From IMG/VR virus record IMGVR_UViG_3300031992_002320: DNA of 34,722 nucleotides; one strand, written 5' to 3'. Position 1 is the first letter of the stretch, and the number at the start of each line of letters is the position of its first letter. The DNA is from an uncultured virus (IMG/VR IMGVR_UViG_3300031992_002320) (taxonomy: Duplodnaviria > Heunggongvirae > Uroviricota > Caudoviricetes). The translations under genes and the position numbers were made by a program. The notes under the pieces were generated by a model, which worked only from the letters and a program-made list of their open reading frames with translations, did not search any database and was not told where the DNA came from. Positions 3,161-16,734 of the stretch are shown here, one piece after another.

Positions 3161-4672
3161 ATGGCAGATTTGGAGGGACTTGATATTAAGAGTCTTGTGG
3201 GGGTTGACCTTACGGGGGCTGATTGTAGTGATGAGTTAGAGGAGTGTTTTGGTTCGCTTAAGATGCTGTTCCAATCTCATACCTCTGCCGTGGAGGTTCT
3301 GGATGCCTTTGATAAGGCTTATGGTGAGGAGTTCCGTGCGGGGCTTTCAGCTTCTGATCGTTGTTTGTTTGATTATGTTCGTATTAGGCTCGCTGTAGCG
3401 GCTGGTAAGGTTGTTGAGCCGGCTGTGATTGAGGGTGTGGCTGAAGGGTTATCCAACTCCGATGCCTTGCTCTCCTACGGTGAGTTTTTGGTTGAGCACG
3501 GAGCCTTTGCGAAGGCGGATGCCGTGTTTGAGCGTGCCTATAATGTGGGTTGTTGCATGTGGCGTTTATTCCTTGGTAGGGGTATGCTCTGCAGAGCCAG
3601 AGGTGACTTAGGTTCTGCAATGAGGTATTTCGATAAATCTCGCCGTTCCGGTGGTGGTTATCGTGCCTTGGTTGAGGGTGCCACAATTCTTCTCATGATG
3701 CAGAACTTTGAGCTTTGTGGTAAGTGGCTCGATGAGATTGAGAAGATTAACAAGGGTTCTCTCATCGGTATTGATCTCCGTGTGAATTGGTTCATTGCGA
3801 CCAATGATATCAACGGTGGTCGTGCCTATATCGAGGAGCTCAAGCGCACTTTTGGGGAGACTAATTTGGAGCTCAGTTCGTATGAGATTGTTCTCGATAT
3901 GATGGATCACAATGTTGATGGGCTCATCGAGTTGTGGAAGTCCGAGACATTCCCCAAGGCGGTTAGACCGATGCTCGGTTGTTGCCTTGCTGGCCTGTTG
4001 TTAGACAAGGCAGAGAGTGGTGATGGTTCGGTTATCTATATCCCGGAGGGTGTTGATGCTAATGAGCTTAAGACTGCGGTTCAGGTTCTTGTTGAGGATG
4101 GTGAGGCCGTGTCAGCTCCGATGTTTTCTATGATACTTACGGAGAACTATCTCAACTATCTTGGTTGGGGTGCCGAGGAGGTTTATCATTTCATCAAGTT
4201 GGTTGGTTCTTCCGCGGGAATGGGTTATCAGCAGGTCTATTGGCCTACGGTTGTGGGTGTTGCTGCTGGGTATATTGTTTCTGTGGAGGATGTCAACAGT
4301 GATCTTGCGAGGGAGTTTAAGCAGCTCATTCGTGAGGGGCATAGATATTTCCGTGAGGGATATATGCAGGATGGTGGTGTAGTTTCTTGCATAGGTTATG
4401 TTGAGTGTGAGCTTGCTCTTGGGTATGGTTTGGAGCGTCTTGATAGGGTGCTTCTTACTCTTAAGAGTTCTTTGCCACAGCTTGATAGTTTCTGTGATCT
4501 TGTTCATTGTGTTGCGGATGGTGATGATAGTCGTATTGCCGAGCTTGAGAGTGCTGTTAAGACCTCTTTTGAGGGTATCGGTTCTTCTTATCAGGTTGAT
4601 GGTTTGGCGGCTGTTCTTAAGTCATTCAAGGCGTGTGGTGACAAGCTTAAGTCAGGAGGTGATGTATCATGA
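3161..4672 (+). CDS. TPR-repeat protein (503 aa), candidate immunity protein or chaperone
   Basis: TPR-like helices (ALLSYGEFLVEHGAFAKADAVFERA; LFLGRGMLCRARGDLGSAMRYFDKS); immediately downstream of the effector-like gene. Confidence 0.6.
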   Translation: MADLEGLDIKSLVGVDLTGADCSDELEECFGSLKMLFQSHTSAVEVLDAFDKAYGEEFRAGLSASDRCLFDYVRIRLAVAAGKVVEPAVIEGVAEGLSNSDALLSYGEFLVEHGAFAKADAVFERAYNVGCCMWRLFLGRGMLCRARGDLGSAMRYFDKSRRSGGGYRALVEGATILLMMQNFELCGKWLDEIEKINKGSLIGIDLRVNWFIATNDINGGRAYIEELKRTFGETNLELSSYEIVLDMMDHNVDGLIELWKSETFPKAVRPMLGCCLAGLLLDKAESGDGSVIYIPEGVDANELKTAVQVLVEDGEAVSAPMFSMILTENYLNYLGWGAEEVYHFIKLVGSSAGMGYQQVYWPTVVGVAAGYIVSVEDVNSDLAREFKQLIREGHRYFREGYMQDGGVVSCIGYVECELALGYGLERLDRVLLTLKSSLPQLDSFCDLVHCVADGDDSRIAELESAVKTSFEGIGSSYQVDGLAAVLKSFKACGDKLKSGGDVS

Positions 4673-4989
4673 TGGGTGGTGATGGTATGACCAATGGAGA
4701 GTTCTTTGCATATCCGGCGGCGATGACCACTATTGCGAATGATTTGGATACTGTGGCGGCGGAGTATGAGTCTCGATATAATGCGATGCTCGCTGCATTT
4801 GAATCTCTTGTTAATGAGAGCTGGACGACTCCCGGAGGTCAGGCGGTGCTTGCGAAGTATCAATCTACTTGGCAGCAGGAGTTTACGAAGCTTCATCTTG
4901 GGTTGGCGGAGATTGCCAAGACATTGCGTGAGAGTGCGGATCAGTATGATCAGGGTATTCTTACGGTCAACTTACCCGATTTGAGCTAA
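4669..4989 (+). CDS. WXG100/Esx-like protein (106 aa), variant W-T-T turn
   Basis: Helix-turn-helix pattern, central ESWTTPGGQA, C-terminal LRESADQYDQ; ATGA overlap with the TPR gene. Confidence 0.7.
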   Translation: MMGGDGMTNGEFFAYPAAMTTIANDLDTVAAEYESRYNAMLAAFESLVNESWTTPGGQAVLAKYQSTWQQEFTKLHLGLAEIAKTLRESADQYDQGILTVNLPDLS

Positions 4990-5093
4990 TTTTTGGGATT
5001 CCACGCTTATTGCGTATTATCCATGTGATGTTTTGTAGTTGTAGTTTGGGGTTTACCCCATAGTAAATCTTAATTTATAGGAGGACTTTAGTT

Positions 5094-5390
5094 ATGGCAG
5101 GTGGAGTAATGGTAACAACCTTTGAGGATCTCGAGCAGATTGGTAATGACCTCATTACCTATTCACAGGATCTCGATGAGCTCAAGGGTAAGATTCAGAC
5201 AGCGAGAGACACTATGGAGTCTACTTGGGAATCGCAGGGTGCTACTGCGGAGCTCACCAATGTAGATAATTTCCTTACTTCCGTTGATAACTGTGTTGAG
5301 GCTCTTAACGCTCTTGGTGATATCACCGTTAAGGCCGCTCAGGGTTACAAGGAAGTGGATGATGCCATCGCTTCTGCAAATCAGGGCTAA
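5094..5390 (+). CDS. EsxA-like WXG100 protein (98 aa)
   Basis: N-terminus VTTFEDLEQIG, central TWESQGA, C-terminal AAQGYKEVDDAIA closely follow the EsxA/YukE pattern; AGGAGG RBS. Confidence 0.8.
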   Translation: MAGGVMVTTFEDLEQIGNDLITYSQDLDELKGKIQTARDTMESTWESQGATAELTNVDNFLTSVDNCVEALNALGDITVKAAQGYKEVDDAIASANQG

Positions 5391-5933: not shown

Positions 5934-6328
5934 GGGCTCGTTTTTGGTTTCGACAGGGATGAGAAAGTGCATACTGCAGCAGTCGGAGAACTTTACTCCC
6001 ACCCTAAAGTAGACGCTAACAACGACTACGCAATGGTTGCCTGATCCTTTGGGGTTTGAGCATCCATTCTGATCGCAAGATCAGTTCCGTGTAAGATGGT
6101 TACGGATATGCCTCAACTTACCGGTGACTTAAGTAATCATCCGTGAAGTCCCAAGCCTATCCGCTGGGTGCTGTCGATTGGGTGCAACAGCAACGGTGTG
6201 AGCACTGATTAAATGTTTGTCTGTTCAATGGTGAGCAGTGTTACAAAAATTCGCCTTAAACAGGACTAAGCTGTAGATGTGTGTATGAGTATCATTTTTG
6301 GACACGGGTTCGAATCCCGTCGAGTCCA
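5934..6328 (+). ncRNA. ssrA: tmRNA; tag peptide (A)ANNDYAMVA at 6015-6044
   Basis: 5' GGGCTCG..GGTTTCGAC and 3' GACACGGGTTCGAATCCCGTCGAGTCC-A; acceptor stem with G3:U alanine identity pair; resume context TAGAC-GCT AAC AAC GAC TAC GCA ATG GTT GCC TGA; CCA not encoded. Confidence 0.93.
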
Positions 6329-6352
6329 CTTTTTGACTGTTGGAGGTTTTTT

Positions 6353-6529: not shown

Positions 6530-7144
6530 ATGGTGAGATATGGAGAGCCTCGTTGTGCGTTGGTGAGGTTGATGACCGATTCGCGGGTATCAGAGCTCAT
6601 GCGGCAGTTGTGTGATTACTGTTATGAGACCTTCGAGCATTCGGTTAATGTGGCCTACCTGACGGCGGAGATTTGTCTTACGCCTTTGTGGGATGATTTC
6701 CGTGAGAACATTGGTATCCGTAGGGATGAGTTTAATGTGGATGATCTGGTGCTTGGTGCATTATTGCACGACATAGGTAAGTTGGATATTCCGAAGAAGA
6801 TCTTGGATAAGCCGGGGAAGCTTACGAAGCGTGAGCTTGAGATTATACATCAGCATCCGCTGCTCGGTTATAATCGTTTGACGCAGTTGGGAGGTTTCTC
6901 CGATTTGACCTTGGATGTGGTGCTGCACCATCATGAGAAGATTGATGGTTCTGGTTATCCCGATGGTATTACGAATTGTGATGAGTTGGTGCAGCTCGTG
7001 GCGTTTTGTGATATGTACGATGCGCTTACGGCGAGTAGGTGTTATCGTGAGAGCATGACAATGTTGTCTGCATATCGGATTCTGCGGGATGAGCATTTGG
7101 ATCCGGATTTGTTTCTGATGTTGGTCAGTTGTGATGATAGATGA
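6530..7144 (+). CDS. HD-GYP domain protein (cyclic dinucleotide phosphodiesterase family)
   Basis: HSVNVA, LLHDIGK, HHHEKIDGSGYPDG and DMYDALTASRCY motifs. Confidence 0.9.
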   Translation: MVRYGEPRCALVRLMTDSRVSELMRQLCDYCYETFEHSVNVAYLTAEICLTPLWDDFRENIGIRRDEFNVDDLVLGALLHDIGKLDIPKKILDKPGKLTKRELEIIHQHPLLGYNRLTQLGGFSDLTLDVVLHHHEKIDGSGYPDGITNCDELVQLVAFCDMYDALTASRCYRESMTMLSAYRILRDEHLDPDLFLMLVSCDDR

Positions 7145-7311: not shown

Positions 7312-8031
7312 ATGGATAACAAGTTTTGGAGTATGTTCGACTCGTTGGTAGTGTTCGATGTTGAGACCACGGGGCTCAATCCGAAGGTGGATCACATCAC
7401 GGAGCTTTCCGCTGTATGTGTTCGTCAGGAGGATTCTGGTGTGGTTGAGCAGTTCACTGGTTATGTGAAGTTGCCGGAGGGTGTTCATCTTGATCCCAAG
7501 GTTTCGGAGCTTACGGGTATCACCGAGGAGAAGTTGGCTGCCGAGGGTTCGGACATCGTGGTGGTGTTGGAGAGGTTCTTCGATTTCTTCAAGGGGAGTA
7601 CCTTGGTGGTGGCTCACAATGCGGCGTTTGACCTTAGTTTCATCCGTGAGACTTGTCTCCGTCTGAATCGTGAGGATCTGCTTGAGATTATCGATGGGGC
7701 CGATTACCTTGATACTTTGACTGTGGCGAAGGACAGGGTTGTACCTCCGCACAAGCTTGGTAATCTGATGGAGCTGTTTGGGGTTACGGTAAGTGGTAAT
7801 CTCCACGATGCGGCGGTTGATGTTCTTGGTTGTCTTGGGGTTCTTTATAAGCTGGCCGAGCAGAAGGATGATGTCATGAAGTATGTGGATGTGTTCGGAT
7901 ATTTCCCTTGGGCATCTCATCCACAGCTCAATGGGGTGACATTCATTCCGCAGGGCAAGAACGGCAATGATATTCCGTTGTATGAGCTTGTGGGTATCGA
8001 GGGTACCGAGGTTTCTGGTACGGGTGTCTGA
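7312..8031 (+). CDS. DnaQ-like DEDDh 3'-5' exonuclease
   Basis: ExoI VFDVETTG, ExoII VAHNAAFD, ExoIII HDAAVDV. Confidence 0.92.
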   Translation: MDNKFWSMFDSLVVFDVETTGLNPKVDHITELSAVCVRQEDSGVVEQFTGYVKLPEGVHLDPKVSELTGITEEKLAAEGSDIVVVLERFFDFFKGSTLVVAHNAAFDLSFIRETCLRLNREDLLEIIDGADYLDTLTVAKDRVVPPHKLGNLMELFGVTVSGNLHDAAVDVLGCLGVLYKLAEQKDDVMKYVDVFGYFPWASHPQLNGVTFIPQGKNGNDIPLYELVGIEGTEVSGTGV

Positions 8032-8593: not shown

Positions 8594-10156
8594 ATGATGA
8601 GCAATTTCCATGATTTACTGGTTCGTGCGAAGGGTAGTCGTTCACAGGCACAGTTTGCGAAGGAGTGTGGTTTCAGTGCGGAGTATCTCTGCAGGCTTAT
8701 GTCGGGTAAGGAGGTTTCTCCGAGGCTTGACACTCTTGAGTCGATAGCGTGTCATTCGCATGGTGGTGTTTGTTTGAAGGATCTGGTTGAGGCGCTTGGG
8801 TATTCTCTCAATGATGTGAATAACGGAGCCAATGCCGAGGCCGTGCAGGAGTTTTCCGAGGCGGATTTCGAGACTGAGCTTGAGGGTGAGGTCAACCTTT
8901 TCCGTGATACCATTCTGGGTTTTGTGGGTAAGACTCTTGCCTATACGGATGTGTTCAATTCTCTTTCGGAGGCGGTTGAGTCCCTTGGGGAGAAGTATCT
9001 GGGGGTTGAGGTTCGTGATGTTGGTGGGTACTATGGCAAGGACATCGTGGTTGAGGGCGTTGGTGATGATCAGCTCGGTTACATGACTTTTGTTCTTACC
9101 GATACCCGTGATAATATCAGCAAGGTTGGTACGGCCTATGGTTATATCATCTTTACCACCTCGACTGTGGATGGTGAGATAATGTGTACCGTGGTGGATG
9201 GTGGTACTGATGTTATTGGTCTTGAGCGCATCTATGGTGTGCGTGGTGATATTCTTGGTTTCCTTGAGAGGGGTGGTCATGAGTCATCGGATCGTTTGGT
9301 TGTCATCAAGCCTTATGCGATGCACAGGGCTTCTGCGGCGGTGCTCAGCCGTCGTGTATCTGGTGAGGATGTTCAGACCATCACTACTGATATTGGTAGG
9401 GGGTTCTTTGTTGGGGAGCTTAGCATGAATAATGTGGCGTTCTTCATGATTGACCATCGTAGATCACTCTTTGCTTGTCTTAAGTCCTTTGAGGCCGGTT
9501 TTGTCAGCAAGGCCTCGGATGTGTTGGATAAGTATTTCGCGGATTGTTCTCATAACAGAGGTGATGTGATGGAGTTCCTTACGAGCCTCGGTATGATTTA
9601 TGTTGATGGTCTTGGGGAGGATTTCATTCCTTGTGATGTTTATGATGACTGGCTTGTGGGTATTGTCAATCTCATCTCTCTGATCATGGAGTATGAGACT
9701 CACATCCGTTTCGATGTGTATACCCCGGATATGGTTAAGGGTGATCTTAAGGAGTATTTCACGAAGGATGTGGCTATTATGGCCGGCTGCTGTGGTGACT
9801 TCGAGCCTCTCACGATTATGGATGTGATTGGTCGTTATGCGAAGAGTCTTGGGGTTGAGTCCTTTGGTGATATCTATTTCACTCATTTCGTGATGGAGTT
9901 TGCGCCGATGAGATTCAGACCTAAGTTCACGGTTGCCAAGGAGGATTTTATGAACTGGCATTGGCTTGATGCTGGTGATACTCTCCCTACGGTGACGGGT
10001 ATATATGATTGTGTGTTCAAGGATGGTCGTCGAGTGAAGTGTCTGTACCTTGCTGATAAGGGGCATTTCGTGGCTGCCCATAAGGAGTGGTCGGATTGGA
10101 TTAGTGGTTTTAATCCGGAGGCGCTTGCTCTTGGTGATACTGTAGTTGCCAAGTAG
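8594..10156 (+). CDS. XRE-family HTH protein with a large unknown C-terminal region (520 aa)
   Basis: N-terminal RSQAQFAKECGFSAEYLCRLMSGKEVSPRLDTLESIA; C-terminal WHWL..LP..G.Y segment is DUF551-like. Confidence 0.75.
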   Translation: MMSNFHDLLVRAKGSRSQAQFAKECGFSAEYLCRLMSGKEVSPRLDTLESIACHSHGGVCLKDLVEALGYSLNDVNNGANAEAVQEFSEADFETELEGEVNLFRDTILGFVGKTLAYTDVFNSLSEAVESLGEKYLGVEVRDVGGYYGKDIVVEGVGDDQLGYMTFVLTDTRDNISKVGTAYGYIIFTTSTVDGEIMCTVVDGGTDVIGLERIYGVRGDILGFLERGGHESSDRLVVIKPYAMHRASAAVLSRRVSGEDVQTITTDIGRGFFVGELSMNNVAFFMIDHRRSLFACLKSFEAGFVSKASDVLDKYFADCSHNRGDVMEFLTSLGMIYVDGLGEDFIPCDVYDDWLVGIVNLISLIMEYETHIRFDVYTPDMVKGDLKEYFTKDVAIMAGCCGDFEPLTIMDVIGRYAKSLGVESFGDIYFTHFVMEFAPMRFRPKFTVAKEDFMNWHWLDAGDTLPTVTGIYDCVFKDGRRVKCLYLADKGHFVAAHKEWSDWISGFNPEALALGDTVVAK

Positions 10157-10170
10157 TCTCAATGTGGTTT

Positions 10171-10209
10171 GACGATGAGGTCATGCCGGATGAGTGTGGC
10201 CTCATCGTT
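10171..10209 (+). terminator. Hairpin between protein genes and the RNA array
   Basis: GACGATGAGGTCAT / GTGGCCTCATCGTT, 14-bp stem. Confidence 0.55.
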
Positions 10210-10270
10210 ACACAGGTTTGATGAGTTTTGTTTTGTTTTTTGATACGTTTATCTTAGGTATTACATTTGT

Positions 10271-10341
10271 GCCTACGTAGTATAGTGGTAGTACATCTGC
10301 TTCCCAAGCAGGTAGCGCGGGTTCGATCCTCGTCGTGGGCT
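10271..10341 (+). tRNA. tRNA-Gly(CCC)
   Basis: Acceptor GCCTACG/CGTGGGC, anticodon loop TTCCCAA, T-loop TTCGATC, U discriminator. Confidence 0.9.
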
Positions 10342-10345
10342 TTAT

Positions 10346-10468
10346 CAATGGGGTGGTTGCAACAAGTATCTGTGGTGCATCACAGTGCTTGCCAAGTGGT
10401 AGCCACATTACAAGCATAGACCGATGCACTGGTCGAAGCCGTAGAGAGTTCGAATCTCTCCCCATTGT
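10346..10468 (+). ncRNA. tRNA-like RNA with expanded D region and no canonical anticodon arm
   Basis: Perfect CAATGGG/CCCATTG acceptor and GAGAG-TTCGAAT-CTCTC T-arm; helix GTGGTTGC/GTAGCCAC encloses a further hairpin. Confidence 0.5.
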
Positions 10469-10719
10469 CGCCGACTTGTCAATGTCGTAAAACTTGGTGA
10501 GTGATACTTGCTCGAAGGCCTTGGATATGTGGTTGGGGTGGAAGTTAAAGGTGATACTCCCCATTTAGAAAGACTATTAAGTTTCGCCAACAGCCAAGGA
10601 CAAAAAGGAGACCCCACATCGGCTACTCGCACAATGTAGTATCGGAGATGGGAAGGGAAAGCGGGATGGTAGAAACCAAGTGCGACCTGTGAGTACCACG
10701 CCACGTTGGGGATCGTGGC
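10467..10719 (+). ncRNA. Candidate ~250-nt structured ncRNA
   Basis: Long-range GTCGC+ACTTGGT / ACCAAGTGCGAC pairing, CCTTGG/CCAAGG, crossing TACTCGCA/TGTGAGTA helix; purine-rich; no credible ORF. Confidence 0.45.
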
Positions 10720-10723
10720 ATCT

Positions 10724-10795
10724 GCCTTCGTAGCACAATGGTAGTGCGGATGCATCGTAAGCATCAGGTTATAGGTTCGAATCCTATCGGGGGCT
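10724..10795 (+). tRNA. tRNA-Thr(CGT)
   Basis: Acceptor GCCTTCG/CGGGGGC; GATGC-ATCGTAA-GCATC; ATAGG-TTCGAAT-CCTAT. Confidence 0.9.
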
Positions 10796-10974
10796 TTGTG
10801 TCGGGTGTAGGGCCTATACAGTTTTGCAAGACTGGGTGTGGCCAAGGTAGGTCGTCGGTTTAATCAACCGATTAAAGCGGATGAAGCTGATTACTTATTC
10901 GTATCCTATCGGTGGGTTCAATTCCCCAAGTGTTAGCCATACACGATTCCGGGTGGGTGCATGCGGCACATTGT

Positions 10975-11097
10975 AGGGATGTAGCTCAGATGGGAGAGCT
11001 TTACCGTATACTGTTCTTAAGCCATTCATAATCGCGAGTGTGGGTGGTGGTTTGGAACTGGACGAAGTGGTCATGGGTTCGAGTCCTATCATCCCTT
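10975..11097 (+). ncRNA. tRNA-like RNA with a ~65-nt extended anticodon arm
   Basis: Perfect AGGGATG/CATCCCT acceptor, canonical D-arm GCTC/GAGC and T-arm; anticodon arm replaced by a long imperfect hairpin. Confidence 0.7.
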
Positions 11098-11190
11098 GAT
11101 GTTGGGGTAGCTACCCAACTATGTGAGCGTGGCGGAGTCCTCACAGAAAATGACAATGCTACGGTGTTGATGCATCGTAGAATCGCACAT

Positions 11191-11263
11191 GGGGGTATAG
11201 CTCAGTTGGGAGAGCGCCTGCCTTGCAAGCAGGATGTCAGGGGTTCAAGTCCCCTTACTTCCA
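11191..11263 (+). tRNA. tRNA-Ala(TGC)
   Basis: Acceptor GGGGGTA/TACTTCC with G3:U70; CCTGC-CTTGCAA-GCAGG. Confidence 0.95.
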
Positions 11264-11266
11264 CTT

Positions 11267-11368
11267 AGGCATGGTTGGTGGGCGCCCGGTTAGCTCAATC
11301 GGTAGAGCGCTCTGGAAACGGAGAGATGTGGTTCGAGTCCAATACTGGGAGGAAATCAACCTAAACCT
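11267..11368 (+). ncRNA. tRNA mimic with GAAA tetraloop in place of the anticodon, copy 1
   Basis: D-arm GCTC/GAGC; CTCTG-GAAA-CGGAG; T-loop TTCGAGT; acceptor CCCGGT/ACTGGG extended by GGTTGGT/ATCAACC and AGG/CCT. Confidence 0.7.
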
Positions 11369-11373
11369 AATAT

Positions 11374-11447
11374 GGCTCGGTAGTTCAGATGGTGAGAACG
11401 CCTGCCTGTCACGCAGGAGGTCATGGGTTCAAGTCCCATTCGAGTCG
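11374..11447 (+). tRNA. tRNA-Asp(GTC)
   Basis: Acceptor GGCTCGG/TCGAGTC; CCTGC-CTGTCAC-GCAGG; G discriminator. Confidence 0.93.
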
Positions 11448-11449
11448 TT

Positions 11450-11537
11450 GGCCTAATAGTTTAATGGAAGATATTTTAAGCGCGTAGAACGGCATTAAGT
11501 CATAAAGCTGGTAGAGGTTCGATTCCTCTTTAGGTCG
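11450..11537 (+). pseudogene. tRNA-like element with intact acceptor and T-arm but no recognisable anticodon arm
   Basis: GGCCTAA/TTAGGTC; AGAGG-TTCGATT-CCTCT. Confidence 0.55.
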
Positions 11538-11661
11538 CTTAAAAAACACGATGACAAGATAATTTGCTGGAGTTAACTGCAAGGGTAGGATATTGGGTAA
11601 TCAGCAAAACCTTAGTCCGAGAGTAGCAGCGGGGGTTTTTGAGGCCGTGTTTCCCCCATAT

Positions 11662-11733
11662 GGGGCTGTGGTGCTGTTGGGAGCACAGGTGTTTTGCAAG
11701 CATAAAGTTGGGGTTCAAGTCCCATCGGTCACC
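11662..11733 (+). pseudogene. Degenerate tRNA-Ala(TGC)-like element
   Basis: GGGGCTG 5' end, GTGC/GCAC D-stem, TTTGCAA loop; mismatches in acceptor and T stems. Confidence 0.5.
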
Positions 11734-11736
11734 TTT

Positions 11737-11842
11737 GGAGCACGGGTGATGGCAGTCCGGCAAAGTGAAGCGGAGTTCGAGTCTCTAAACCAAAACCGTT
11801 CGAATCGGTTGGTGCATGGTGCAAAACTTTGCATAACGCTCC
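11737..11842 (+). ncRNA. Candidate ncRNA with two tandem T-loop hairpins
   Basis: GGAGC/GCTCC and GCAAAGT/ACTTTGC enclose GGAG-TTCGAGT-CTCT and AACCG-TTCGAAT-CGGTT. Confidence 0.5.
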
Positions 11843-11911
11843 TATAGTACAACTGGTGAGCGTGGGTGCTTTGCAGGCACGAGGTTATGGGTTCAAGTCC
11901 CATCAGTTCCA
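11843..11911 (+). pseudogene. tRNA-Ala(TGC)-like 3' portion lacking its own 5' acceptor strand
   Basis: GTGC-TTTGCAG-GCAC; ATGGG-TTCAAGT-CCCAT; CAGTTCC-A. Confidence 0.5.
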
Positions 11912-11914
11912 TTT

Positions 11915-12014
11915 GGGCATGGTTAGTGAGTATCCCGGCTGGTCCTGTGGTGGGACGCTTGGGAAACCAAGAGACCGGTTCGACTCCGAGCTGGGAGAAA
12001 GCTAACCTAAACCC
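11915..12014 (+). ncRNA. tRNA mimic with GAAA tetraloop in place of the anticodon, copy 2
   Basis: D-arm GTCC/GGAC; CTTGG-GAAA-CCAAG; T-loop TTCGACT; acceptor TCCCGGC/GCTGGGA extended by GGTTAGT/GCTAACC and GGG/CCC. Confidence 0.7.
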
Positions 12015-12018
12015 TTAT

Positions 12019-12090
12019 ACCGATATAACTCAATTGGTAGAGTGCTATCCTACAAGATAGAAGTTGGGAGTTCGAGTCTCTCTGTTGGTA
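12019..12090 (+). tRNA. tRNA-Val(TAC)-like with a 6-nt anticodon loop
   Basis: Acceptor ACCGATA/TGTTGGT; ACTC/GAGT D-stem; CTATC-CTACAA-GATAG; GGGAG-TTCGAGT-CTCTC. Confidence 0.65.
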
Positions 12091-12094
12091 CGAA

Positions 12095-12162
12095 CCCGTG
12101 AAGAGATCGTTTAGGCGTTTAACGGATCAATTTACGGGGCGCGGAGCGCAAAATAACGCCTA
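12095..12162 (+). ncRNA. Candidate pseudoknotted RNA
   Basis: CCCGTGAA/TTTACGGG hairpin whose loop TAGGCGTT pairs with downstream AACGCCTA; GCGC-GGA-GCGC hairpin in between. Confidence 0.5.
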
Positions 12163-12207
12163 TGGGATTGAGAGTATCTTATTCAGACAAGAATTAAAAA
12201 TCTGGAT

Positions 12208-12329
12208 ACCATGATGGTGAAATTGGAAGCCGCTGGGAGCCGGGGTGCTCCCGATTCTTAAGAGCTGGAGAGCCCGTCGAGGGTTGGACGGCACACTGAG
12301 GAATACAGGTTCGAGTCCTGTTCATGGTC
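12208..12329 (+). ncRNA. tRNA-like RNA (Leu-type D-loop) with a ~50-nt branched variable arm
   Basis: Perfect ACCATGA/TCATGGT and ACAGG-TTCGAGT-CCTGT; GGGAGC-CGGGGT-GCTCCC at the anticodon position; ATTCTT/AGGAAT encloses CCGTC/GACGG. Confidence 0.65.
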
Positions 12330-12466
12330 GGCGGTGTGGTGGCGGCACAGTGGAGTTTAACTCACGGCCATAGAGTGCGGGAGGGCTTAGACGCATAAGG
12401 CATCATTGGGGGCCGCGGATCGAGTGGTGCTTGTCCTCATTGGTTATGTTGAGGAAGGAGGCTTGT

Positions 12467-12832
12467 ATGCACGGGAATATAGTGGATCTCAGAGGTCAGC
12501 GGTTTGGTAATCTCACGGTGTTGGAGTTGACCAATCTTAAGACGGAACGCAAGAGGGGTACGGTCTGGCTTTGTAAGTGTGATTGTGGCAACCTCTGTTA
12601 TAAGACTGGTGCGGATCTGAGGGATACGAGGCGTAAGACTTGTTCTTGTGGTTGTATGAACCGTGGGCATCGTCAGTTTCCGAATCGGTTTGTTCAGAAG
12701 CCGGAGTTTACTGGTCATGAGAGGGTTCGTGCAGAGTTTGCTGATGCTCTTATGAAATATTATGCGGGTTCTCCGTATGAGAGTGTAATGAGGCAGGGTA
12801 TATCTGCTGTGTTGGCATCGTATGCTAAGTAG
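12467..12832 (+). CDS. Homing-endonuclease-associated Cys-rich domain protein (no nuclease motif seen)
   Basis: DLRGQRFGNLTV...WLCKCDCGN...SCGC motif, typical of the N-termini of phage HNH/AP2 proteins; AGGAGG RBS. Confidence 0.7.
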   Translation: MHGNIVDLRGQRFGNLTVLELTNLKTERKRGTVWLCKCDCGNLCYKTGADLRDTRRKTCSCGCMNRGHRQFPNRFVQKPEFTGHERVRAEFADALMKYYAGSPYESVMRQGISAVLASYAK

Positions 12833-12844
12833 TTTTTGTTCTGT

Positions 12845-12917
12845 CGGGATGTAGCGCAGATGGTAGCGTGCTTCATTAGGGATGAAGAGGTCGTGGGTTC
12901 AAATCCCGCCATTCCGA
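12845..12917 (+). tRNA. tRNA-Pro(AGG)
   Basis: Acceptor CGGGATG/CATTCCG; CTTCA-TTAGGGA-TGAAG; GTGGG-TTCAAAT-CCCGC; A discriminator. Confidence 0.92.
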
Positions 12918-12920
12918 CTT

Positions 12921-13050
12921 GTGTCGAAGGAGAGTGACTACTCCGTAGATACTGGATAAACCAAGGTGTAATGGTTGGCACACCCGCCCCGACGGCAGAT
13001 TAGTCACTGTGCGAGGGCGAGAGGGTAAGGTTCGAATCCTTTGTGGTTTG
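12921..13050 (+). ncRNA. tRNA-like RNA with extended anticodon arm complementary to an upstream hairpin loop
   Basis: TAAACCA/TGGTTTG; GTGT/GCAC D-stem; AAGG-TTCGAAT-CCTT; loop AGTGACTA (12933-40) is complementary to TAGTCACT (13001-08). Confidence 0.6.
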
Positions 13051-13101
13051 CTCAGGCACGGTTGTGTGAGTAGCCTCAGTAGTTTAGAGGTAGAACAATC
13101 C

Positions 13102-13172
13102 GCCCACATCGTATATTGGTATTACGGCTGTTTTGTAAGCAGTTTAGCTTGGTTCGAATCCAAGTGTGGGCT
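13102..13172 (+). tRNA. tRNA-Thr(TGT)
   Basis: Acceptor GCCCACA/TGTGGGC; GCTGT-TTTGTAA-GCAGT; CTTGG-TTCGAAT-CCAAG. Confidence 0.88.
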
Positions 13173-13174
13173 AT

Positions 13175-13250
13175 TGCAGGTGGGTGGAACGGAATGACCA
13201 TACAAGGCTCATAACCTTTGTGATAGTGGGTTCGACTCCCACGCCTGCTA
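13175..13250 (+). tRNA. tRNA-Met(CAT), possibly initiator-like (1:72 mismatch)
   Basis: GCAGGT/GCCTGC; AAGG-CTCATAA-CCTT; GTGGG-TTCGACT-CCCAC. Confidence 0.78.
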
Positions 13251-13254
13251 TTTT

Positions 13255-13329
13255 GCCCTCGTAGCTCAATGGATAGAGCACGTGGCTACGGACCACGGTT
13301 TTGTGCATGTTCGATTCGTGTCGGGGGCG
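13255..13329 (+). tRNA. tRNA-Arg(ACG)
   Basis: Acceptor GCCCTCG/CGGGGGC; CGTGG-CTACGGA-CCACG. Confidence 0.92.
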
Positions 13330-13350
13330 TTTGGTGTCATGTATTATATT

Positions 13351-13585
13351 GCAATATTACTAAGTTAAGACTCATGGCTGTCGAATTTGGGTTGAAAGAA
13401 ATGATGGAGTGGCATGCGTAGATTAAACGTGAGGCAGGAAGCACACTATGCACCCGTACTTCAAGGAACCAATCAAAACGATGAGAATTTGAAGTGAATG
13501 CCTTGACTAAAAACATACGGCTCATTGTGATGTCACAGGAATAAAGCAGGGAATATTGTGATAAATCTTAACTTAATGATATTGT
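13351..13585 (+). ncRNA. Candidate ~235-nt ncRNA closed by a 20-bp terminal stem
   Basis: GCAATATTACTAAGTTAAGA pairs with TCTTAACTTAATGATATTGT (2 G-U, 1 mismatch); A-rich interior. Confidence 0.45.
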
Positions 13586-13609
13586 TTGTGGTGGATGTTT
13601 TCTTTTTTG

Positions 13610-13683
13610 TGGGATATGGCGCAGTTTGGTAGCGTGCTACACTGGGGGTGTAGAGGTCGTGGGTTCAAGTCCCATTATTCCAA
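13610..13683 (+). tRNA. tRNA-Pro(GGG)
   Basis: Acceptor TGGGATA/TATTCCA; CTACA-CTGGGGG-TGTAG. Confidence 0.9.
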
Positions 13684-13686
13684 TAT

Positions 13687-13788
13687 GTCGGTGATGAAGT
13701 TCGCAAAATGGAGTCATCGGCTGAGTGTCGAATACAAAAGTGTGAACAAAGTCGACACGGTTGCGGTTAGCTTCACACGCGCCGCAAC
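13687..13788 (+). ncRNA. Candidate three-hairpin RNA with kissing loops
   Basis: GTCGGTGAT/GTCATCGGC, GTGTCGA/TCGACAC, GTTGCGGT/GCCGCAAC; loops GTGTGAA and TTCACAC are complementary. Confidence 0.55.
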
Positions 13789-13792
13789 TTTA

Positions 13793-13865
13793 CGGGGTGT
13801 GGCTCAGGTGGTAGAGCGCGTGCTTCGGGAGCACGAGGTCGTGGGTTCGAGTCCCGTCACTCCGA
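13793..13865 (+). tRNA. tRNA-Pro(CGG)
   Basis: Acceptor CGGGGTG/CACTCCG; CGTGC-TTCGGGA-GCACG. Confidence 0.93.
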
Positions 13866-13898
13866 TTGGTGTTGTTTGTGTTAGGTTTGGAGGTGCAA

Positions 13899-14063
13899 AT
13901 GGAGCCTTTAATCATTCTCTTGGTGATTCAGATTTGGGTTATACTCTTATACAGGCCTAAGGAGGAGTCGATGTATGAGAATTGGCGTTCCGATTATGGC
14001 TGGAGGTCATCATCCAAGTGTGGTAAGCACGGGAGTCGGATGAGGCATCATAGGTATCATTAG
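13899..14063 (+). CDS. Small membrane-anchored basic peptide (54 aa; internal start at 13971 possible)
   Basis: GGAGGT RBS before ATG 13899; second GGAGG before in-frame ATG 13971. Confidence 0.4.
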   Translation: MEPLIILLVIQIWVILLYRPKEESMYENWRSDYGWRSSSKCGKHGSRMRHHRYH

Positions 14064-14147
14064 TTTTGATTTGGAGCCCTCTGGAGTCTGCGGACTGGCA
14101 GTGAAGTAACCTCTGTTTTCGGACATGTTAAGAAAGGCATTGATTGT

Positions 14148-14222
14148 GGGGATGCTCAGACGTGGGCGTGGCAAAAGCCGGGGAGGCACCTTTGGCGAGG
14201 TGGTTCGAATCCGCCGATCCCC
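14148..14222 (+). ncRNA. Degenerate tRNA-like element
   Basis: GGGGAT/ATCCCC and GGTGG-TTCGAAT-CCGCC; short internal hairpins; no 7-nt anticodon loop. Confidence 0.4.
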
Positions 14223-15542: not shown

Positions 15543-15672
15543 TTTTTATTGGGAGTCCAAGGAGGTGAATGATTCTGGTTCGGCTTGGTTTGGGCTCTTT
15601 TATATTTTTGGATGTGTTAACTTATCGGTGTCCTTTGGTATCGGTACCTTTCAGTTCAGTGAGGTGATTTTA

Positions 15673-16734
15673 GTGTTTAGTAGAAACATTGACTTGAAGA
15701 GGGTTATGTTGTATGGGGGCTTGAGTGATTCAGAATATACGGAGGTTCTGCCCGATATTGAGGAGCAGAATAGGCAGATTCTCTTGATGGCATCTTTGCT
15801 CGCGGTAGTTCTTATCGGGTGTATGTTTGTGATCTCGCTCTTTGTGGGTGAGTTTACTGGGGCTACGGTTGTGTATGGTTTTGGCTGCTTGGTATCGGTG
15901 TTGGTGTGGCTTCTGACGTGTTTTGTGGTGCCACGGCGTTTGGGGTTAACACATTTACTCACGGCGGTATGTGTTGAGGTATATCTCGTTTATGGAATTT
16001 TTGTGAGTGGTGTTGTGAATACGGATTTCCCGGCGGTCACCTTCGTGGTCATGGTGGTGTTCATGTCCTTGTTGTTTATTAAGCGGCCGGTGTTTCTAAT
16101 TCTTCAGGTTTTCTTGAGTTGTGCTTTCTACTCTGTTTTGATTTGTTACACGAAGTCTGATTCCACGATTCGTTTGGATCTGGTTAATGTTTTGATATTT
16201 TGGTTGTTGGCATGTGTATGGGGCAGTGTTAGTACCTGTCAGCGTATGCGTGCTGCGTATGTGCATAAAAAGTTATTTGAGTTTAATGAGGTGGATCAGT
16301 TAACTCGGTTGAAGAATCGGAACTGTTATGAGTTGAATCTCGGTGGTTATGCATCTATGTATCACAAGCGGATTTGTTGTGTTTATGTTGATGTGAATGG
16401 TTTGCATCAGCTTAATAATTCCAAGGGGCATGAGGCTGGTGATGAGATGCTTAAGTTCACGGCGGATAGGGTTATTCGTTATTTTGGTTTTGAGCATGCC
16501 TATCGTGTTGGTGGGGATGAGTATATAGTGTTTGTCTTGGACACTGCAACGGAGACCGTGTCTGGTTATGTGGCTGATATGATTGCGGAGGTTGAGGAGG
16601 CTGGTTATTCCTTGTCTGTTGGAATTAGTCATACAGATGGTGTGTGCAAGATCAAGGATTTGGTTCGTGAGGCGGAATCTAAGATGTTTCGGGCCAAGGA
16701 TGCGTATTACAAGAGGGTTGGTACTACGCGATAG
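15673..16734 (+). CDS. Membrane-bound GGDEF-domain diguanylate cyclase-like protein (GGDEY variant)
   Basis: About 6 TM helices, then DQLTRLKNR, DVNGLHQLNNSKGHEAGD, YRVGGDEY; GAGGTG RBS before GTG 15673. Confidence 0.9.
   Translation: MFSRNIDLKRVMLYGGLSDSEYTEVLPDIEEQNRQILLMASLLAVVLIGCMFVISLFVGEFTGATVVYGFGCLVSVLVWLLTCFVVPRRLGLTHLLTAVCVEVYLVYGIFVSGVVNTDFPAVTFVVMVVFMSLLFIKRPVFLILQVFLSCAFYSVLICYTKSDSTIRLDLVNVLIFWLLACVWGSVSTCQRMRAAYVHKKLFEFNEVDQLTRLKNRNCYELNLGGYASMYHKRICCVYVDVNGLHQLNNSKGHEAGDEMLKFTADRVIRYFGFEHAYRVGGDEYIVFVLDTATETVSGYVADMIAEVEEAGYSLSVGISHTDGVCKIKDLVREAESKMFRAKDAYYKRVGTTR

What the first reader, a model, noticed from the sequence alone, without database searches (positions are those of the whole stretch)
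10271..14222. RNA array where canonical tRNAs alternate with many remodelled tRNA-like RNAs
About a dozen elements retain a T-arm and most retain an acceptor stem, but the anticodon, D or variable arm is replaced: long hairpin, tetraloop, 6-nt loop or branched insert. Changes concentrate away from the elbow/acceptor face that RNase P, RNase Z and the CCA-adding enzyme recognise. Most spacers also fold. Inference: tRNA scaffolds act as processing signals or carriers releasing a panel of ncRNAs, or as decoys against anticodon nucleases (PrrC, RloC, VapC, AriB types). GOLLD and ROOL RNAs are known precedents for large ncRNAs near phage tRNA clusters.
Basis: partly seen in the sequence, partly recalled or inferred. 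Interest (0 to 1): 0.8.

Follow-up and report, generated by a model that had tools for sequence, protein, structure and literature searches.

The report
Phage tRNA array rich in tRNA mimics
A huge phage from the ruminant gut keeps, between its ordinary tRNA genes, a set of conserved tRNA-shaped RNAs that cannot read codons, plus other small RNAs, one of them very abundant, so the array looks like a factory for non-coding RNAs whose job is still unknown.

Summary
Window 10271-14222 (+ strand) carries 10 ordinary tRNA genes and about 14 further elements with a T-arm/T-loop.

Most are not pseudogenes. Against the closest relative (L039), neutral 4-fold sites are 68-78% identical and one spacer 74%. 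Eight tRNA-like elements are 73-97% identical, six of them 95-97%. Of 33 predicted pairs hit by substitutions, 28 stay paired, as in real tRNAs (22 of 26) and unlike the neutral spacer (3 of 10).

Two families recur in distant 330-394 kb phages with strong covariation:
- A tRNA shape with a GAAA tetraloop in place of the anticodon loop, clasped by a covarying leader-trailer helix.
- A 122-nt form with two complementary 6-nt loops.

Scaffolds (acceptor plus T-arm) are shared between phages while the inserts differ. Two Ala-like copies and one truncated unit are decay products of tandem duplication.

A spacer RNA (10487-10615/10622) is over 100 times more abundant than neighbouring mRNA in two metatranscriptome runs of one sample.

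Processing and function are inferred. The decoy idea is untested. Earlier notes of this scan describe sealed-anticodon tRNA mimics in other phages.

The parts
10271..10341 (+). tRNA-Gly(CCC), canonical
   Evidence: ARAGORN; Rfam 59.5 bits; 94.4% identical to L039.
10346..10467 (+). E1: 122-nt tRNA-like RNA. It has a 7-bp acceptor, a 5-bp T-arm and a D-stem-like helix. A long hairpin is inserted in the D-loop (loop GUGCAU). The anticodon-position hairpin has the complementary loop AUGCAC, a putative kissing pair.
   Evidence: Scan. Fold z -3.36, 0 of 200 shuffles as stable. 95.9% identical to L039. Members in G001, G002 and L042 share the same architecture. 99.1% of cells paired and 11 of 27 pairs changed on both sides. 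The kissing pairs never vary, so they are inferred only.
10487..10622 (+). Abundant discrete small RNA ('RNA136'), not tRNA-like. Its true right end may be 10615.
   Evidence: a 168-nt RNA contig of depth 2240 lies on 10487-10622, with adapter-like letters on both sides (X4; left side also in X3). Flanking genes have depth 5-21 and DNA depth is flat at about 24-34. Two helices keep pairing through 7 changed pairs versus L039, two of them changed on both sides. No Rfam match. No homologue in G001, G002 or the other loci.
10623..10723 (+). Fast-evolving spacer, used as the internal neutral control
   Evidence: 74.3% identical to L039. 7 of 10 hit pairs broken. Fold z +0.07.
10724..10795 (+). tRNA-Thr(CGU), canonical
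   Evidence: 94.4% identical to L039.
10796..10950 (+). E2: conserved multi-helix RNA of about 150 nt. It has a T-loop-like GGGUUCAAUUCCC and a loop GUUUUGCAA, but no acceptor stem.
   Evidence: 93% identical to L039. Homologues in G001 and G002, mean column identity 82%, with stems that differ on both sides by my reading of alignment A7. An RNA contig of depth 67 lies on 10821-10952.
10975..11097 (+). E3: 123-nt tRNA-like RNA. Acceptor, D-arm and T-arm are canonical. The anticodon arm is replaced by 63 nt that include a 10-bp hairpin.
   Evidence: Rfam 37 bits with a 63-nt insert. All 6 differences from L039 fall on 5 predicted pairs and all 5 stay paired, 1 compensatory. The first 9 and last 25 nt are 7/9 and 20/25 identical to 123-nt elements of G001 and G002, whose interiors are unrelated.
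11098..11190 (+). Conserved three-hairpin spacer
   Evidence: 96.8% identical to L039; 3 differences, all in pairs and all kept. Fold z -1.57.
11191..11264 (+). tRNA-Ala(UGC), canonical
   Evidence: 70.8 bits.
11268..11367 (+). GAAA-tetraloop tRNA-like unit, copy 1. The tRNA-like part is 11284-11351. The flanks GGCAUGGUUG and CAACCUAAACC form a leader-trailer helix.
   Evidence: Rfam 30.7 bits. Family alignment A9 and pair counts.
11373..11448 (+). tRNA-Asp(GUC), canonical
11450..11537 (+). E5: 88-nt tRNA-like RNA with an extended anticodon arm and no anticodon. It starts 1 nt after tRNA-Asp.
   Evidence: ARAGORN '???'. Rfam 39 bits with a 26-nt replacement. 96.6% identical to L039 and 98.9% to G002. 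Scaffold ends are 7/9 and 21/25 identical to a 124-nt G001 element with a different insert.
11539..11661 (+). cons120: very conserved non-tRNA element. In relatives it sits between tRNA-Asp and tRNA-Ala.
   Evidence: 88-95% identical in 8 relative loci, which stand for 7 distinct contigs since L035 and L038 repeat G001. A 37-nt run is invariant in the 9 aligned sequences. Only the terminal hairpin shows covariation, 2 pairs. Fold z +0.76.
11662..11733 (+). E6: degraded tRNA-Ala(UGC) copy
   Evidence: Rfam 28.9 bits with mismatched pairs. The orthologues in G001 and L039 are intact tRNA-Ala. 83% identical to L039.
11735..11837 (+). E7-8: two T-arm-like hairpins without an acceptor stem; unresolved
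   Evidence: Partial 80% match in L040. Fold z +0.06.
11838..11911 (+). E9: degraded tRNA-Ala(UGC) copy with a broken acceptor stem
   Evidence: Rfam 26.5 bits with 4 unpaired acceptor positions. Its 3' half matches the L039 tRNA-Ala.
11916..12013 (+). GAAA-tetraloop tRNA-like unit, copy 2. The tRNA-like part is 11932-11997. Flank helix GGUUAG/CUAACC.
   Evidence: 94% identical to L039. A9: 92% of cells paired, 11 of 23 pairs changed on both sides, 0 of 500 shuffles as high.
12019..12091 (+). E11: tRNA-Val(UAC)-derived cloverleaf with a 6-nt loop CUACAA
   Evidence: ARAGORN '???'. Rfam 53 bits with one loop position deleted. 90% identical to tRNA-Val of L040. Versus L039 (72.6% identical), 9 pairs are hit: 4 compensatory, 4 one-sided kept, 1 broken.
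12092..12207 (+). Conserved structured spacer
   Evidence: 92% identical to L039. 4 pairs hit and all kept. Fold z -2.02.
12208..12328 (+). E12: 121-nt tRNA-like RNA with a branched interior
   Evidence: All-Watson-Crick 7-bp acceptor plus 5-bp T-arm. The interior, about 12230-12305, is identical in L039. Three compensatory changes sit in the acceptor and T stems.
12467..12832 (+). HNH-endonuclease-like gene inside the array. The segment 12330-13324 has no counterpart in the L039 array.
   Evidence: PHROG 374, E 1.6e-16.
12845..12918 (+). tRNA-Pro(AGG), canonical
12958..13049 (+). E13a: 92-nt tRNA-like element with a 6/7 acceptor, D-arm, long central arm and T-arm. No comparative support.
   Evidence: z -0.64.
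13055..13096 (+). Truncated 5' half of a third GAAA-unit, cut off by tRNA-Thr(UGU)
   Evidence: BLAST of 13028-13097 to the G001 and G002 units; sequence read.
13102..13330 (+). tRNA-Thr(UGU), tRNA-Met/Ile(CAU) with an odd D-arm, and tRNA-Arg(ACG)
13331..13609 (+). Conserved block F. In L039 it lies upstream of the 520-aa HTH gene, not in the array.
   Evidence: 90-91% identical.
13610..13865 (+). tRNA-Pro(GGG), conserved three-hairpin spacer 13684-13792, and tRNA-Pro(CGG)
   Evidence: Spacer 91.7% identical, fold z -2.55.
14148..14222 (+). E14: 75-nt element with a T-arm, a 6-bp acceptor and three short hairpins
   Evidence: 97.3% identical to L039. 2 pairs hit, both kept. Only a chance-level tRNA-Sec hit, 17.9 bits.

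Best explanation
The region is the tRNA/non-coding-RNA island of a huge phage of ruminant-gut bacteria. It is probably read as long + strand precursors. Beside about 10 decoding tRNAs it encodes several families of tRNA-derived RNAs that no longer decode. Each keeps the acceptor/T-arm minihelix, and usually the D-arm or elbow. These are the parts that RNase P, RNase Z and the CCA-adding enzyme recognise (established knowledge; not shown here).

The anticodon arm is replaced by another module. Examples are a sealed GAAA tetraloop, a pair of complementary loops, or long or branched hairpins.

Inferred mechanism: the tRNA part serves as a built-in handle for excision and stability. It lets host tRNA-maturation enzymes cut each unit out and leave a stable 65-125-nt RNA. 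The replaced arm is the working part, which binds a protein or RNA partner still unknown. The same cuts free the conserved non-tRNA RNAs that lie between units, such as the very abundant RNA at 10487-10615/22.

Shown here: the elements exist, they are under purifying and structure-preserving selection, families recur in distant relatives, scaffolds are shared while inserts differ, and one spacer RNA is abundant and discrete.

Inferred: processing by tRNA enzymes, stability, and any effector role. A minority of elements (11662-11733, 11838-11911, 13055-13096) are decaying by-products of tandem duplication.
For: Conservation above neutral. 4-fold sites are 68-78% identical to L039 and one spacer 74%. 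E1, E3, E5, E10 and E14 are 94-97%, E2 and E12 are 93%, and canonical tRNAs are 77-94%. Differences are 60 of 823 nt in 8 tRNA-like elements against 96 of 374 4-fold sites (P 6e-17).

Structure-preserving change, scored on window-only MFE structures:
- tRNA-like elements: 33 pairs hit, 10 compensatory, 18 one-sided kept, 5 broken.
- Canonical tRNAs: 8, 14 and 4.
- Neutral spacer: 1, 2 and 7 (Fisher P 0.002).

GAAA unit, 6 copies from 5 phage contigs: 92% of cells paired, 11 of 23 pairs changed on both sides, 0 of 500 shuffles as high, slid controls 31-55%.

E1 family, 4 aligned members: 99.1% paired, 11 of 27 pairs changed on both sides, slid controls 32-48%. All 5 members found fold alike with exact 6-nt loops GUGCAU and AUGCAC.

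E5 is 98.9% identical in G002, where the adjoining tRNA-Asp is about 86%.

Scaffold ends are shared while interiors are unrelated, for E3 and E5 against G001 and G002. Four G001 and four G002 long tRNA-like elements with different acceptors share one hairpin module.

The units abut tRNAs by 1-5 nt. Like the real tRNAs, they do not encode CCA (sequence).

RNA: a contig of depth 2240 on 10487-10622 with adapter-like ends, against 5-21 on neighbouring genes and flat DNA depth.
Against: No read-level evidence that any tRNA-like element is cut out, CCA-tailed or stable.

The RNA data are assembled contigs from one sample. The only strong RNA signal is on a non-tRNA spacer, whose ends (10487 and 10615/22) lie 19 nt and about 100 nt from the nearest tRNA-type borders.

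Most comparative power comes from one close relative plus two distant genomes, so the independent substitution events are few. For E1 there are effectively two lineages.

The kissing-loop pairs and much of E12, E5 and cons120 never vary, so their structures are unproven.

Folding energies of most elements are within the range of shuffles.

The leader-trailer helix around the GAAA unit could hinder RNase P rather than help it. No partner or phenotype is known.
Confidence: 0.6

Rival explanations
1. Pure punctuation. The tRNA-like elements have no function of their own. They survive only as cleavage signals, like plant-mitochondrial t-elements, that free neighbouring RNAs or separate tRNAs.
For: They sit in tRNA-like spacing next to conserved non-tRNA RNAs: E1 before the abundant RNA, E5 before cons120. 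The acceptor and T stems of E12 tolerate compensatory change, as a pure shape signal would. Earlier notes of this scan reached this reading for sealed-anticodon mimics in other phages (unchecked).
Against: Interiors that a cutting signal does not need are the most conserved parts. The E12 interior is identical to L039. E5 is 98.9% identical in G002. The GAAA loop and the E1 loops are invariant across 5 contigs. The GAAA units lie between two real tRNAs, which need no extra signal. The ends of the abundant RNA do not match tRNA-type borders.
Confidence: 0.17
2. Decoys or sponges against host tRNA-targeting defences, or other tRNA-binding factors. The mimics bind such proteins through the acceptor/elbow face but cannot be inactivated at an anticodon loop.
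For: Phage tRNA arrays are linked to escape from tRNA-cleaving defences (PMC10264068 abstract; PMC13096335 abstract; both seen only in the search listings). The face kept here is the one shared by all tRNAs. Sealed or replaced loops would resist anticodon nucleases (inference).
Against: Known anticodon nucleases read the anticodon loop, which these elements lack (recalled knowledge). No defence or counter-defence gene was tied to the array. Nothing was tested.
Confidence: 0.13
3. Decaying tRNA pseudogenes left by duplication and relaxed selection in a lineage that shrank a larger ancestral array.
For: Relatives carry 33-48 mostly canonical tRNAs, whereas this lineage shows about 12-13. The unit [Ala-like tRNA - GAAA unit - tRNA] is repeated 2.5 times, with two degraded Ala copies and one truncated unit. 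E11 is a Val tRNA that lost one loop base.
Against: Eight elements are conserved well above neutral and keep pairing in 28 of 33 hit pairs. Three families are present, with their non-decoding features, in distant genomes.
Confidence: 0.07
4. Unusual but decoding tRNAs: intron-bearing genes that are spliced, or frameshift or suppressor tRNAs.
For: Inserts sit at the anticodon-arm position. The L039 homologue of E11 is called tRNA-Stop(UUA) by ARAGORN.
Against: No canonical anticodon stem-loop can be rebuilt from E1, E3, E5 or E12 by removing a block (sequence reading). Rfam finds no intron family. The GAAA loop has 4 nt. ORFs are long under code 11.
Confidence: 0.03

Closest known systems
Phage T4 RNAC and RNAD (species 1 and 2 RNAs) in the T4 tRNA gene cluster
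   Same: Small stable phage RNAs of unknown function that accompany the tRNA genes. 'RNAs of yet unknown functions', detected by Northern blot, is a passage read in PMC9697503. That they lie in the tRNA cluster and are cut by tRNA-processing enzymes is recalled.
   Different: No sequence or model was available to compare. Here there are many elements in several families, with clear tRNA scaffolds and replaced anticodon arms, in 175-394 kb phages of the rumen.
t-elements of plant mitochondria, mitochondrial tRNA punctuation, and herpesvirus MHV68 tRNA-like units
   Same: tRNA-shaped, non-decoding structures that tRNA-processing enzymes use to define the ends of neighbouring RNAs. The abstract of PMC1920247 was seen in the listing. 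The MHV68 case is recalled.
   Different: Those are eukaryotic organelle or virus systems. Here the interiors are themselves conserved, and the ends of the one mapped RNA do not coincide with the tRNA-like borders.
Engineered 'tRNA scaffold' for recombinant RNA (recalled, not read)
   Same: An RNA of interest replaces the anticodon arm, and the tRNA body gives processing and nuclease resistance. This is the same architecture as E3, E5 and E12.
   Different: It is man-made. A natural use of this principle by phages has not been shown.
Canonical tRNA (Rfam RF00005), including phage tRNAs with altered anticodon loops that evade nucleases (PMC10264068, abstract in listing)
   Same: Acceptor, T-arm and often the D-arm. 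Same operon, same lack of encoded CCA. Some score above the Rfam threshold (E3, E4, E5, E11).
   Different: No 7-nt anticodon loop. E1, E10, E12 and E14 are not found by RF00005 at E<=10.
GOLLD and ROOL RNAs; bacterial Y RNA-like YrlA
   Same: Large or tRNA-like non-coding RNAs associated with phage tRNA clusters. GOLLD (198 bits) sits in the tRNA array of related contig L042.
   Different: No GOLLD or ROOL hit in the window. YrlA hits reach 16-20 bits against a threshold of 69. As recalled, YrlA has the opposite topology, with its ends at the anticodon side.

Membership tests
tRNA (RF00005), decoding | Acceptor stem plus T-arm with a T-loop | tested here: met
   E1, E3, E4, E5, E10, E11, E12, E13a and E14 have both. 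E2 and E7-8 have a T-loop-like hairpin only.
tRNA (RF00005), decoding | 5-bp anticodon stem with a 7-nt loop carrying an anticodon | tested here: not met
   GAAA tetraloop in E4 and E10. 6-nt loop in E11. Arm replaced in E1, E3, E5, E12 and E14.
tRNA (RF00005), decoding | Score at or above the Rfam gathering score (29 bits) | tested here: inconclusive
   Met by E3 (37), E4 (30.7), E5 (39) and E11 (53.2). Not met by E6 (28.9) or E9 (26.5). E1, E10, E12 and E14 have no hit at E<=10.
tRNA pseudogenes | Neutral, non-compensatory divergence between relatives | tested here: not met
   28 of 33 hit pairs kept and identity 93-97% for most, against a neutral 68-78%. The feature is met for E6 and E9, which have mismatched stems while intact orthologues exist in relatives.
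tmRNA | tRNA-like domain plus tag reading frame and pseudoknots | tested here: not met
   The only tmRNA is at 5934-6331. There is none in 10271-14222.
YrlA / Y RNA-like (RF02553) | Rfam gathering score of 69 bits | tested here: not met
   Best hits 20.1 and 16.6 bits, E 1.2-4.4.
GOLLD / ROOL | Rfam model match | tested here: not met
   No hit in the window at the gathering score or at E<=10. GOLLD is present in relative L042.
t-element-type processing signals | RNase P / RNase Z cleavage at the mimic defines the ends of the neighbouring RNA | tested here: inconclusive
   The abundant RNA starts 19 nt after E1 and ends about 100 nt before tRNA-Thr. Contigs cannot show primary cleavage sites.
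T4 RNAC/RNAD-type stable RNAs | Sequence or structure likeness to T4 RNAC or RNAD | not testable with these tools
   No model came up in the Rfam searches, and no T4 sequence was fetched.
Intron-containing tRNA | Group I intron or another intron whose removal restores an anticodon arm | tested here: not met
   No intron family at E<=10. No restorable anticodon stem-loop.

The most novel reading that the evidence does not exclude
Huge phages use the tRNA body as a natural, modular display scaffold. Orthologous acceptor/T-arm scaffolds carry swappable RNA modules: a sealed GAAA loop, kissing loops, protein-binding hairpins. Host tRNA enzymes excise and stabilise them. The resulting RNAs act as a panel of anti-host or anti-defence effectors, for example by titrating tRNA-recognising immune nucleases, modification enzymes or synthetases. 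The GAAA family may derive from tRNA-Phe(GAA) and could even remain chargeable without decoding.
Probability: 0.3. Interest if true: 0.88.

Novelty: new variant of a known kind. Interest (0 to 1): 0.72.

Why it matters
Phage tRNA arrays are usually explained by codon supply or, more recently, by escape from tRNA-cleaving defences. Here about half of an array is made of selected RNAs that cannot decode.

That points to a third use of the tRNA fold in phages: a self-processing, stable carrier or mimic. It also yields several concrete, testable RNA families:
- the GAAA unit with its clasp helix;
- the kissing-loop form;
- E5;
- cons120;
- the abundant 130-nt RNA.

It warns annotators that 'pseudo' or 'undetermined' tRNA calls in large phages may be functional non-coding RNAs. 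It gives a natural counterpart to engineered tRNA scaffolds.

Tried and rejected
- **Whole genome or record.** None is held for the window. The metagenome records behind L037 and L039 could not be searched whole, so tRNAs elsewhere on the phage are unknown.
- **More relatives.** The 520-aa neighbour found none. Exact-word scans from cons120 (41-mer), RNA136, E12 and E3 found nothing in viral contigs. The cons120 22-mer, the RNA136 21-mer and the GAAA-unit pattern found nothing in genome contigs. The gapped GAAA-unit pattern found only G001 and G002 in viral contigs.
- **Covariance model of RNA136.** Only the two seed sequences matched. The tool itself says an empty answer shows nothing.
- **Known RNA families.** No Rfam family other than tRNA or tmRNA explains any element.
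- **Folding energy as evidence.** RNA136 (z +0.33; minus strand +1.30), cons120 (+0.76) and several tRNA-like elements are no more stable than shuffles. This argument was dropped.
- **Promoter and terminator scan.** Fewer promoter-like sites than in shuffles (4 against 7.9), so no start site is claimed.
- **RNA cover.** Stretches without RNA contigs (for example 10121-10327, 10949-11155, 13433-13639) and the lack of a peak over E1 are not used as evidence. High depth at 11156-11569 is matched by high DNA depth, so it is cross-mapping of other organisms' tRNAs.
- **Intron reading of the long elements.** Rejected, because no anticodon arm can be restored.
- **Coding reading.** No conserved ORF apart from the HNH-like gene and a 54-codon ORF at 13899-14063. 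Indels of 1-2 nt versus L039 fall inside RNA136.
- **Kissing loops.** Complementary and invariant, so covariation cannot test them.
- **MAFFT columns.** They misplace the D-stem and hairpin 1 of E1, and parts of the GAAA-unit acceptor. Those pairs were left out or counted as aligned.
- **Neighbouring proteins.** These are an HD-type phosphohydrolase, a DnaQ-like exonuclease, an AAA ATPase and a GGDEF protein. They give no link to tRNA processing.
- **Literature.** Four full-text searches found no paper describing arrays of remodelled tRNA-like RNAs in phages. Subscription journals and the older T4 and T5 papers are not in that library.

Full report
**Context.** All long ORFs of the window lie on the + strand, which has an extreme GC skew of about +0.3. 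The proteins are phage-like: DNA methylases, SAM synthetase, a DnaQ-like exonuclease, WXG100 proteins and an HNH-like endonuclease. A tmRNA gene lies at 5934-6331.

The AAA ATPase just downstream of the region is 90% identical to one in a 394-kb IMG/VR phage with terminal repeats, G001. A second complete relative, G002 (332 kb), and eight metagenome loci share a conserved element of the array. L037 is the window's own contig. L039 is a close relative, 85-91% identical and largely syntenic across the array. Runs that hold the sequence are sheep, goat and bovine gut metagenomes.

G001 and G002 carry 47 and 48 RF00005 matches in 20-30 kb islands that also hold a tmRNA. Related contig L042 has 33 tRNAs and a GOLLD RNA (198 bits) inside its array.

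- ARAGORN genes in 10271-14222, 10 with normal anticodons and two '???'.
- Rfam adds weak or long tRNA matches at 10975-11097, 11284-11351, 11662-11733 and 11838-11911.
- GTTCRA occurs 24 times in these 4.1 kb, against 29 times in the remaining 30.6 kb and once on the minus strand.
- Twelve of the 24 lie outside ARAGORN genes, where about 3 are expected.
- A scan for T-arm plus adjacent 7-nt acceptor complement finds all-Watson-Crick acceptors for 10346-10467 and 12208-12328, 7/7 for 10975-11096, and 6/7 for 14148-14222.

The Infernal alignments show what is altered:
- a 63-nt replacement of the anticodon arm (E3);
- a 26-nt replacement (E5);
- a GAAA tetraloop on a 5-bp stem (E4, and by sequence E10);
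- a 6-nt loop CUACAA (E11).

Three spacers have z of -1.6 to -2.6. Five stretches are no better than dinucleotide shuffles, and real tRNAs here score only -1.0 to -2.2.

- Neutral divergence is high. 4-fold sites of the two flanking genes are 78% and 68% identical, and spacer 10623-10723 is 74% identical.
- Identity of the tRNA-like elements: E1 95.9%, E2 93.1%, E3 95.1%, E5 95.5%, E12 92.6%; E10 94% and E14 97%.
- Identity of the conserved spacers: 11098-11190 is 96.8%, 12092-12207 is 92.2%, 13684-13792 is 91.7%.
- Canonical tRNAs range from 77 to 94%.

I then scored the L039 differences on structures predicted from the window alone. In eight tRNA-like elements they hit 33 pairs: 10 compensatory, 18 one-sided but still paired, 5 broken. 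Five canonical tRNAs gave 8, 14 and 4. The neutral spacer gave 1, 2 and 7 (Fisher P 0.002).

E11 is instructive. It is only 72.6% identical to its L039 homologue, yet 8 of 9 hit pairs stay paired. Neither copy has a normal anticodon loop, while in L040, L042 and L043 the homologue is a normal tRNA-Val(UAC).

**Families that reach distant phages.**

(i) The GAAA unit. Six copies exist: two in the window and one each in L039, G001, G002 and L042. All share G-GAAA-C on a 5-bp stem that covaries. All share conserved flanks, GGCAUGGU upstream and ACCUAAACC downstream. A leader-trailer helix changes on both sides: GGUUG/CAACC, GGUUAG/CUAACC, GGUUGG/CCGACC, GGUAAG/CUUACC. On alignment A9, 92% of cells pair, 11 of 23 pairs change on both sides, 0 of 500 shuffles reach the score, and slid controls give 31-55%. 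Each unit sits 3-6 nt from a tRNA on either side.

(ii) The E1 family. Five members exist: window, L039, G001, G002, and a longer form in L042. All fold into an acceptor, a T-arm, a D-stem-like helix with a long hairpin inserted in the D-loop, a conserved AAGUGG, and a hairpin at the anticodon position. The two hairpin loops are exactly GUGCAU and AUGCAC, which are complementary. On four aligned members 99.1% of cells pair and 11 of 27 pairs changed on both sides. The loop-loop pairs never vary, so the kissing contact is an inference.

(iii) E2 is conserved in four genomes, with several stems that differ on both sides by my reading of alignment A7. It has no acceptor stem.

(iv) E5 directly follows tRNA-Asp in the window, L039 and G002. 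It is 98.9% identical in G002, where the tRNA is about 86%.

(v) Scaffolds outlive their inserts. E3 and E5 share 7/9 of their first and 20-21/25 of their last bases with 123-124-nt elements of G001 and G002, whose interiors are unrelated. In G001 and G002, four long tRNA-like elements each, with different acceptor stems, carry the same small hairpin followed by GACAGC.

**What is decay.** The window holds three Ala(UGC)-type genes.
- The copy at 11191 is canonical.
- 11662-11733 has mismatched acceptor, anticodon and T stems.
- 11838-11911 has four unpaired acceptor positions.
- L039 has three intact tRNA-Ala genes, and G001 has an intact one at the orthologous place after cons120.

The block [Ala-type tRNA - GAAA unit - tRNA] is repeated. 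A third unit (13055-13096) stops after its D-arm, where tRNA-Thr(UGU) begins. The segment 12330-13324 holds the HNH-like gene and four tRNAs, and has no counterpart in the L039 array. So duplication, insertion and loss are ongoing, and a few elements are by-products.

**Non-tRNA RNAs in the array.** cons120 (11539-11661) is 88-95% identical in eight relative loci, which stand for seven distinct contigs. It is more conserved than the tRNAs beside it, and in relatives it fills the gap between tRNA-Asp and tRNA-Ala almost to the base. Only its terminal hairpin covaries.

The strongest single datum is from RNA. Two metatranscriptome runs of one sample were laid as assembled contigs. The bins covering 10328-10741 have depth 427-1507, against 8-21 on the upstream gene and 5-7 on the ATPase gene. 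DNA depth is flat. One 168-nt contig of depth 2240 lies on 10487-10622, with letters that I recognise (from recall) as Illumina adapter on both sides.

Because the adapter's first bases resemble 10616-10622, the true end may be 10615. The adapter arrangement would fit a + strand RNA if the library is stranded, which is a weak inference.

This RNA has two helices whose seven variable pairs all stay paired in L039, two of them changed on both sides. Conservation drops right after its end. It matches no Rfam family and has no homologue in G001 or G002. The 21-mer taken from it is absent from 185,579 species genomes, so a host origin is unlikely.

**How it most likely works.** The parts that are kept are the acceptor/T-arm minihelix and usually the elbow. 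By established knowledge of tRNA maturation, these are what RNase P, RNase Z and the CCA-adding enzyme need. The units are spaced like tRNAs and, like the real tRNAs here, encode no CCA.

I therefore read them as RNAs that ride the host tRNA-maturation pathway. They would be cut out of long precursors, capped with CCA and protected by the tRNA fold. The replaced arm would do the work. The same cuts would liberate the intervening conserved RNAs, which are then trimmed to their stable cores. This trimming would explain why the abundant RNA's ends lie inside the spacer.

All processing steps are inferred. Pure punctuation is less likely, because the interiors are the most conserved parts and the GAAA units lie between two real tRNAs. 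The decoy idea remains open. It fits factors that read the acceptor/elbow face better than it fits anticodon nucleases.

**Comparison with what is known.** The closest precedents are:
- the T4 RNAC and RNAD RNAs, still of unknown function (PMC9697503, passage read);
- tRNA-like t-elements (PMC1920247, abstract in listing);
- GOLLD and ROOL near phage tRNAs;
- engineered tRNA scaffolds (recalled).

A survey of candidate structured RNAs in viruses mentions putative tRNA-like structures only in general terms (PMC10690425, passages read). A jumbo-phage review mentions only the Ro/Y-RNA partner (PMC7824862, passages read). Four full-text searches found no description of such arrays. The older T4 and T5 literature is outside that library.

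Earlier notes of this scan report single sealed-anticodon tRNA mimics in other phages (unchecked). This window adds several families in one array, a clasp helix, distant conservation and RNA-level evidence.

**Limits.**
- One close and two distant relatives carry most of the comparison.
- The RNA data are contigs from one sample.
- Alignment columns were imperfect for some helices.
- The rest of this phage genome was not available.

Noticed in passing
window 5934-6331: Phage-encoded tmRNA (110 bits; tag ANNDYAMVA*), 4 kb upstream of the array. G001 and G002 carry theirs inside the tRNA island.
   Followed up: partly
L042 7457-7887: GOLLD RNA (RF02032, 198 bits) inside the tRNA array of a related contig, with a tRNA-Lys embedded at 7526-7597.
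   Followed up: no
G001 (L032, minus strand) and G002 (L034, L045): Four long tRNA-like elements per genome, with different acceptor stems, share one internal module: a 5-bp hairpin RAUCA-6 nt-UGAUU followed by GACAGC-like letters. It looks like a common binding site displayed on several tRNA scaffolds.
   Followed up: partly
window 12467-12832: HNH-endonuclease-like gene (PHROG 374) inside the array. The 1-kb segment around it, with four tRNAs, is absent from the L039 array, as expected of a homing-type insertion.
   Followed up: partly
L039 6496-6567 (minus strand): ARAGORN calls the homologue of E11 'tRNA-Stop (tta)'. By my reading the loop can close to 5 nt and position 37 is a pyrimidine, so a true suppressor is doubtful.
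   Followed up: partly
window 13331-13609 and L039 9974-10258: A 280-nt block, 90% conserved, sits inside the array in the window but upstream of the 520-aa HTH gene in L039. It may be a movable regulatory region.
   Followed up: no
window 1-34722: Very strong strand asymmetry: GC skew +0.2 to +0.4 and negative AT skew throughout, with all long ORFs on the + strand.
   Followed up: no
window 6530-7144, 15565-16734, 4669-5390: An HD/HD-GYP-like phosphohydrolase and a GGDEF-domain protein, which suggest cyclic-di-GMP signalling, plus two WXG100 proteins. The latter hint at a Firmicutes or Actinobacteria host.
   Followed up: no
window 13899-14063: A 54-codon ORF with a good ribosome-binding site and a hydrophobic N-terminus, between tRNA-Pro(CGG) and E14. 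The stretch is 93% identical to L039.
   Followed up: no
window 11540-11653 (joints): A co-occurring related strain joins cons120 directly to a different tRNA. The joint 11653>13813 carries 35 other letters and is seen in DNA and RNA contigs, which shows that the array is reshuffled within one community.
   Followed up: no
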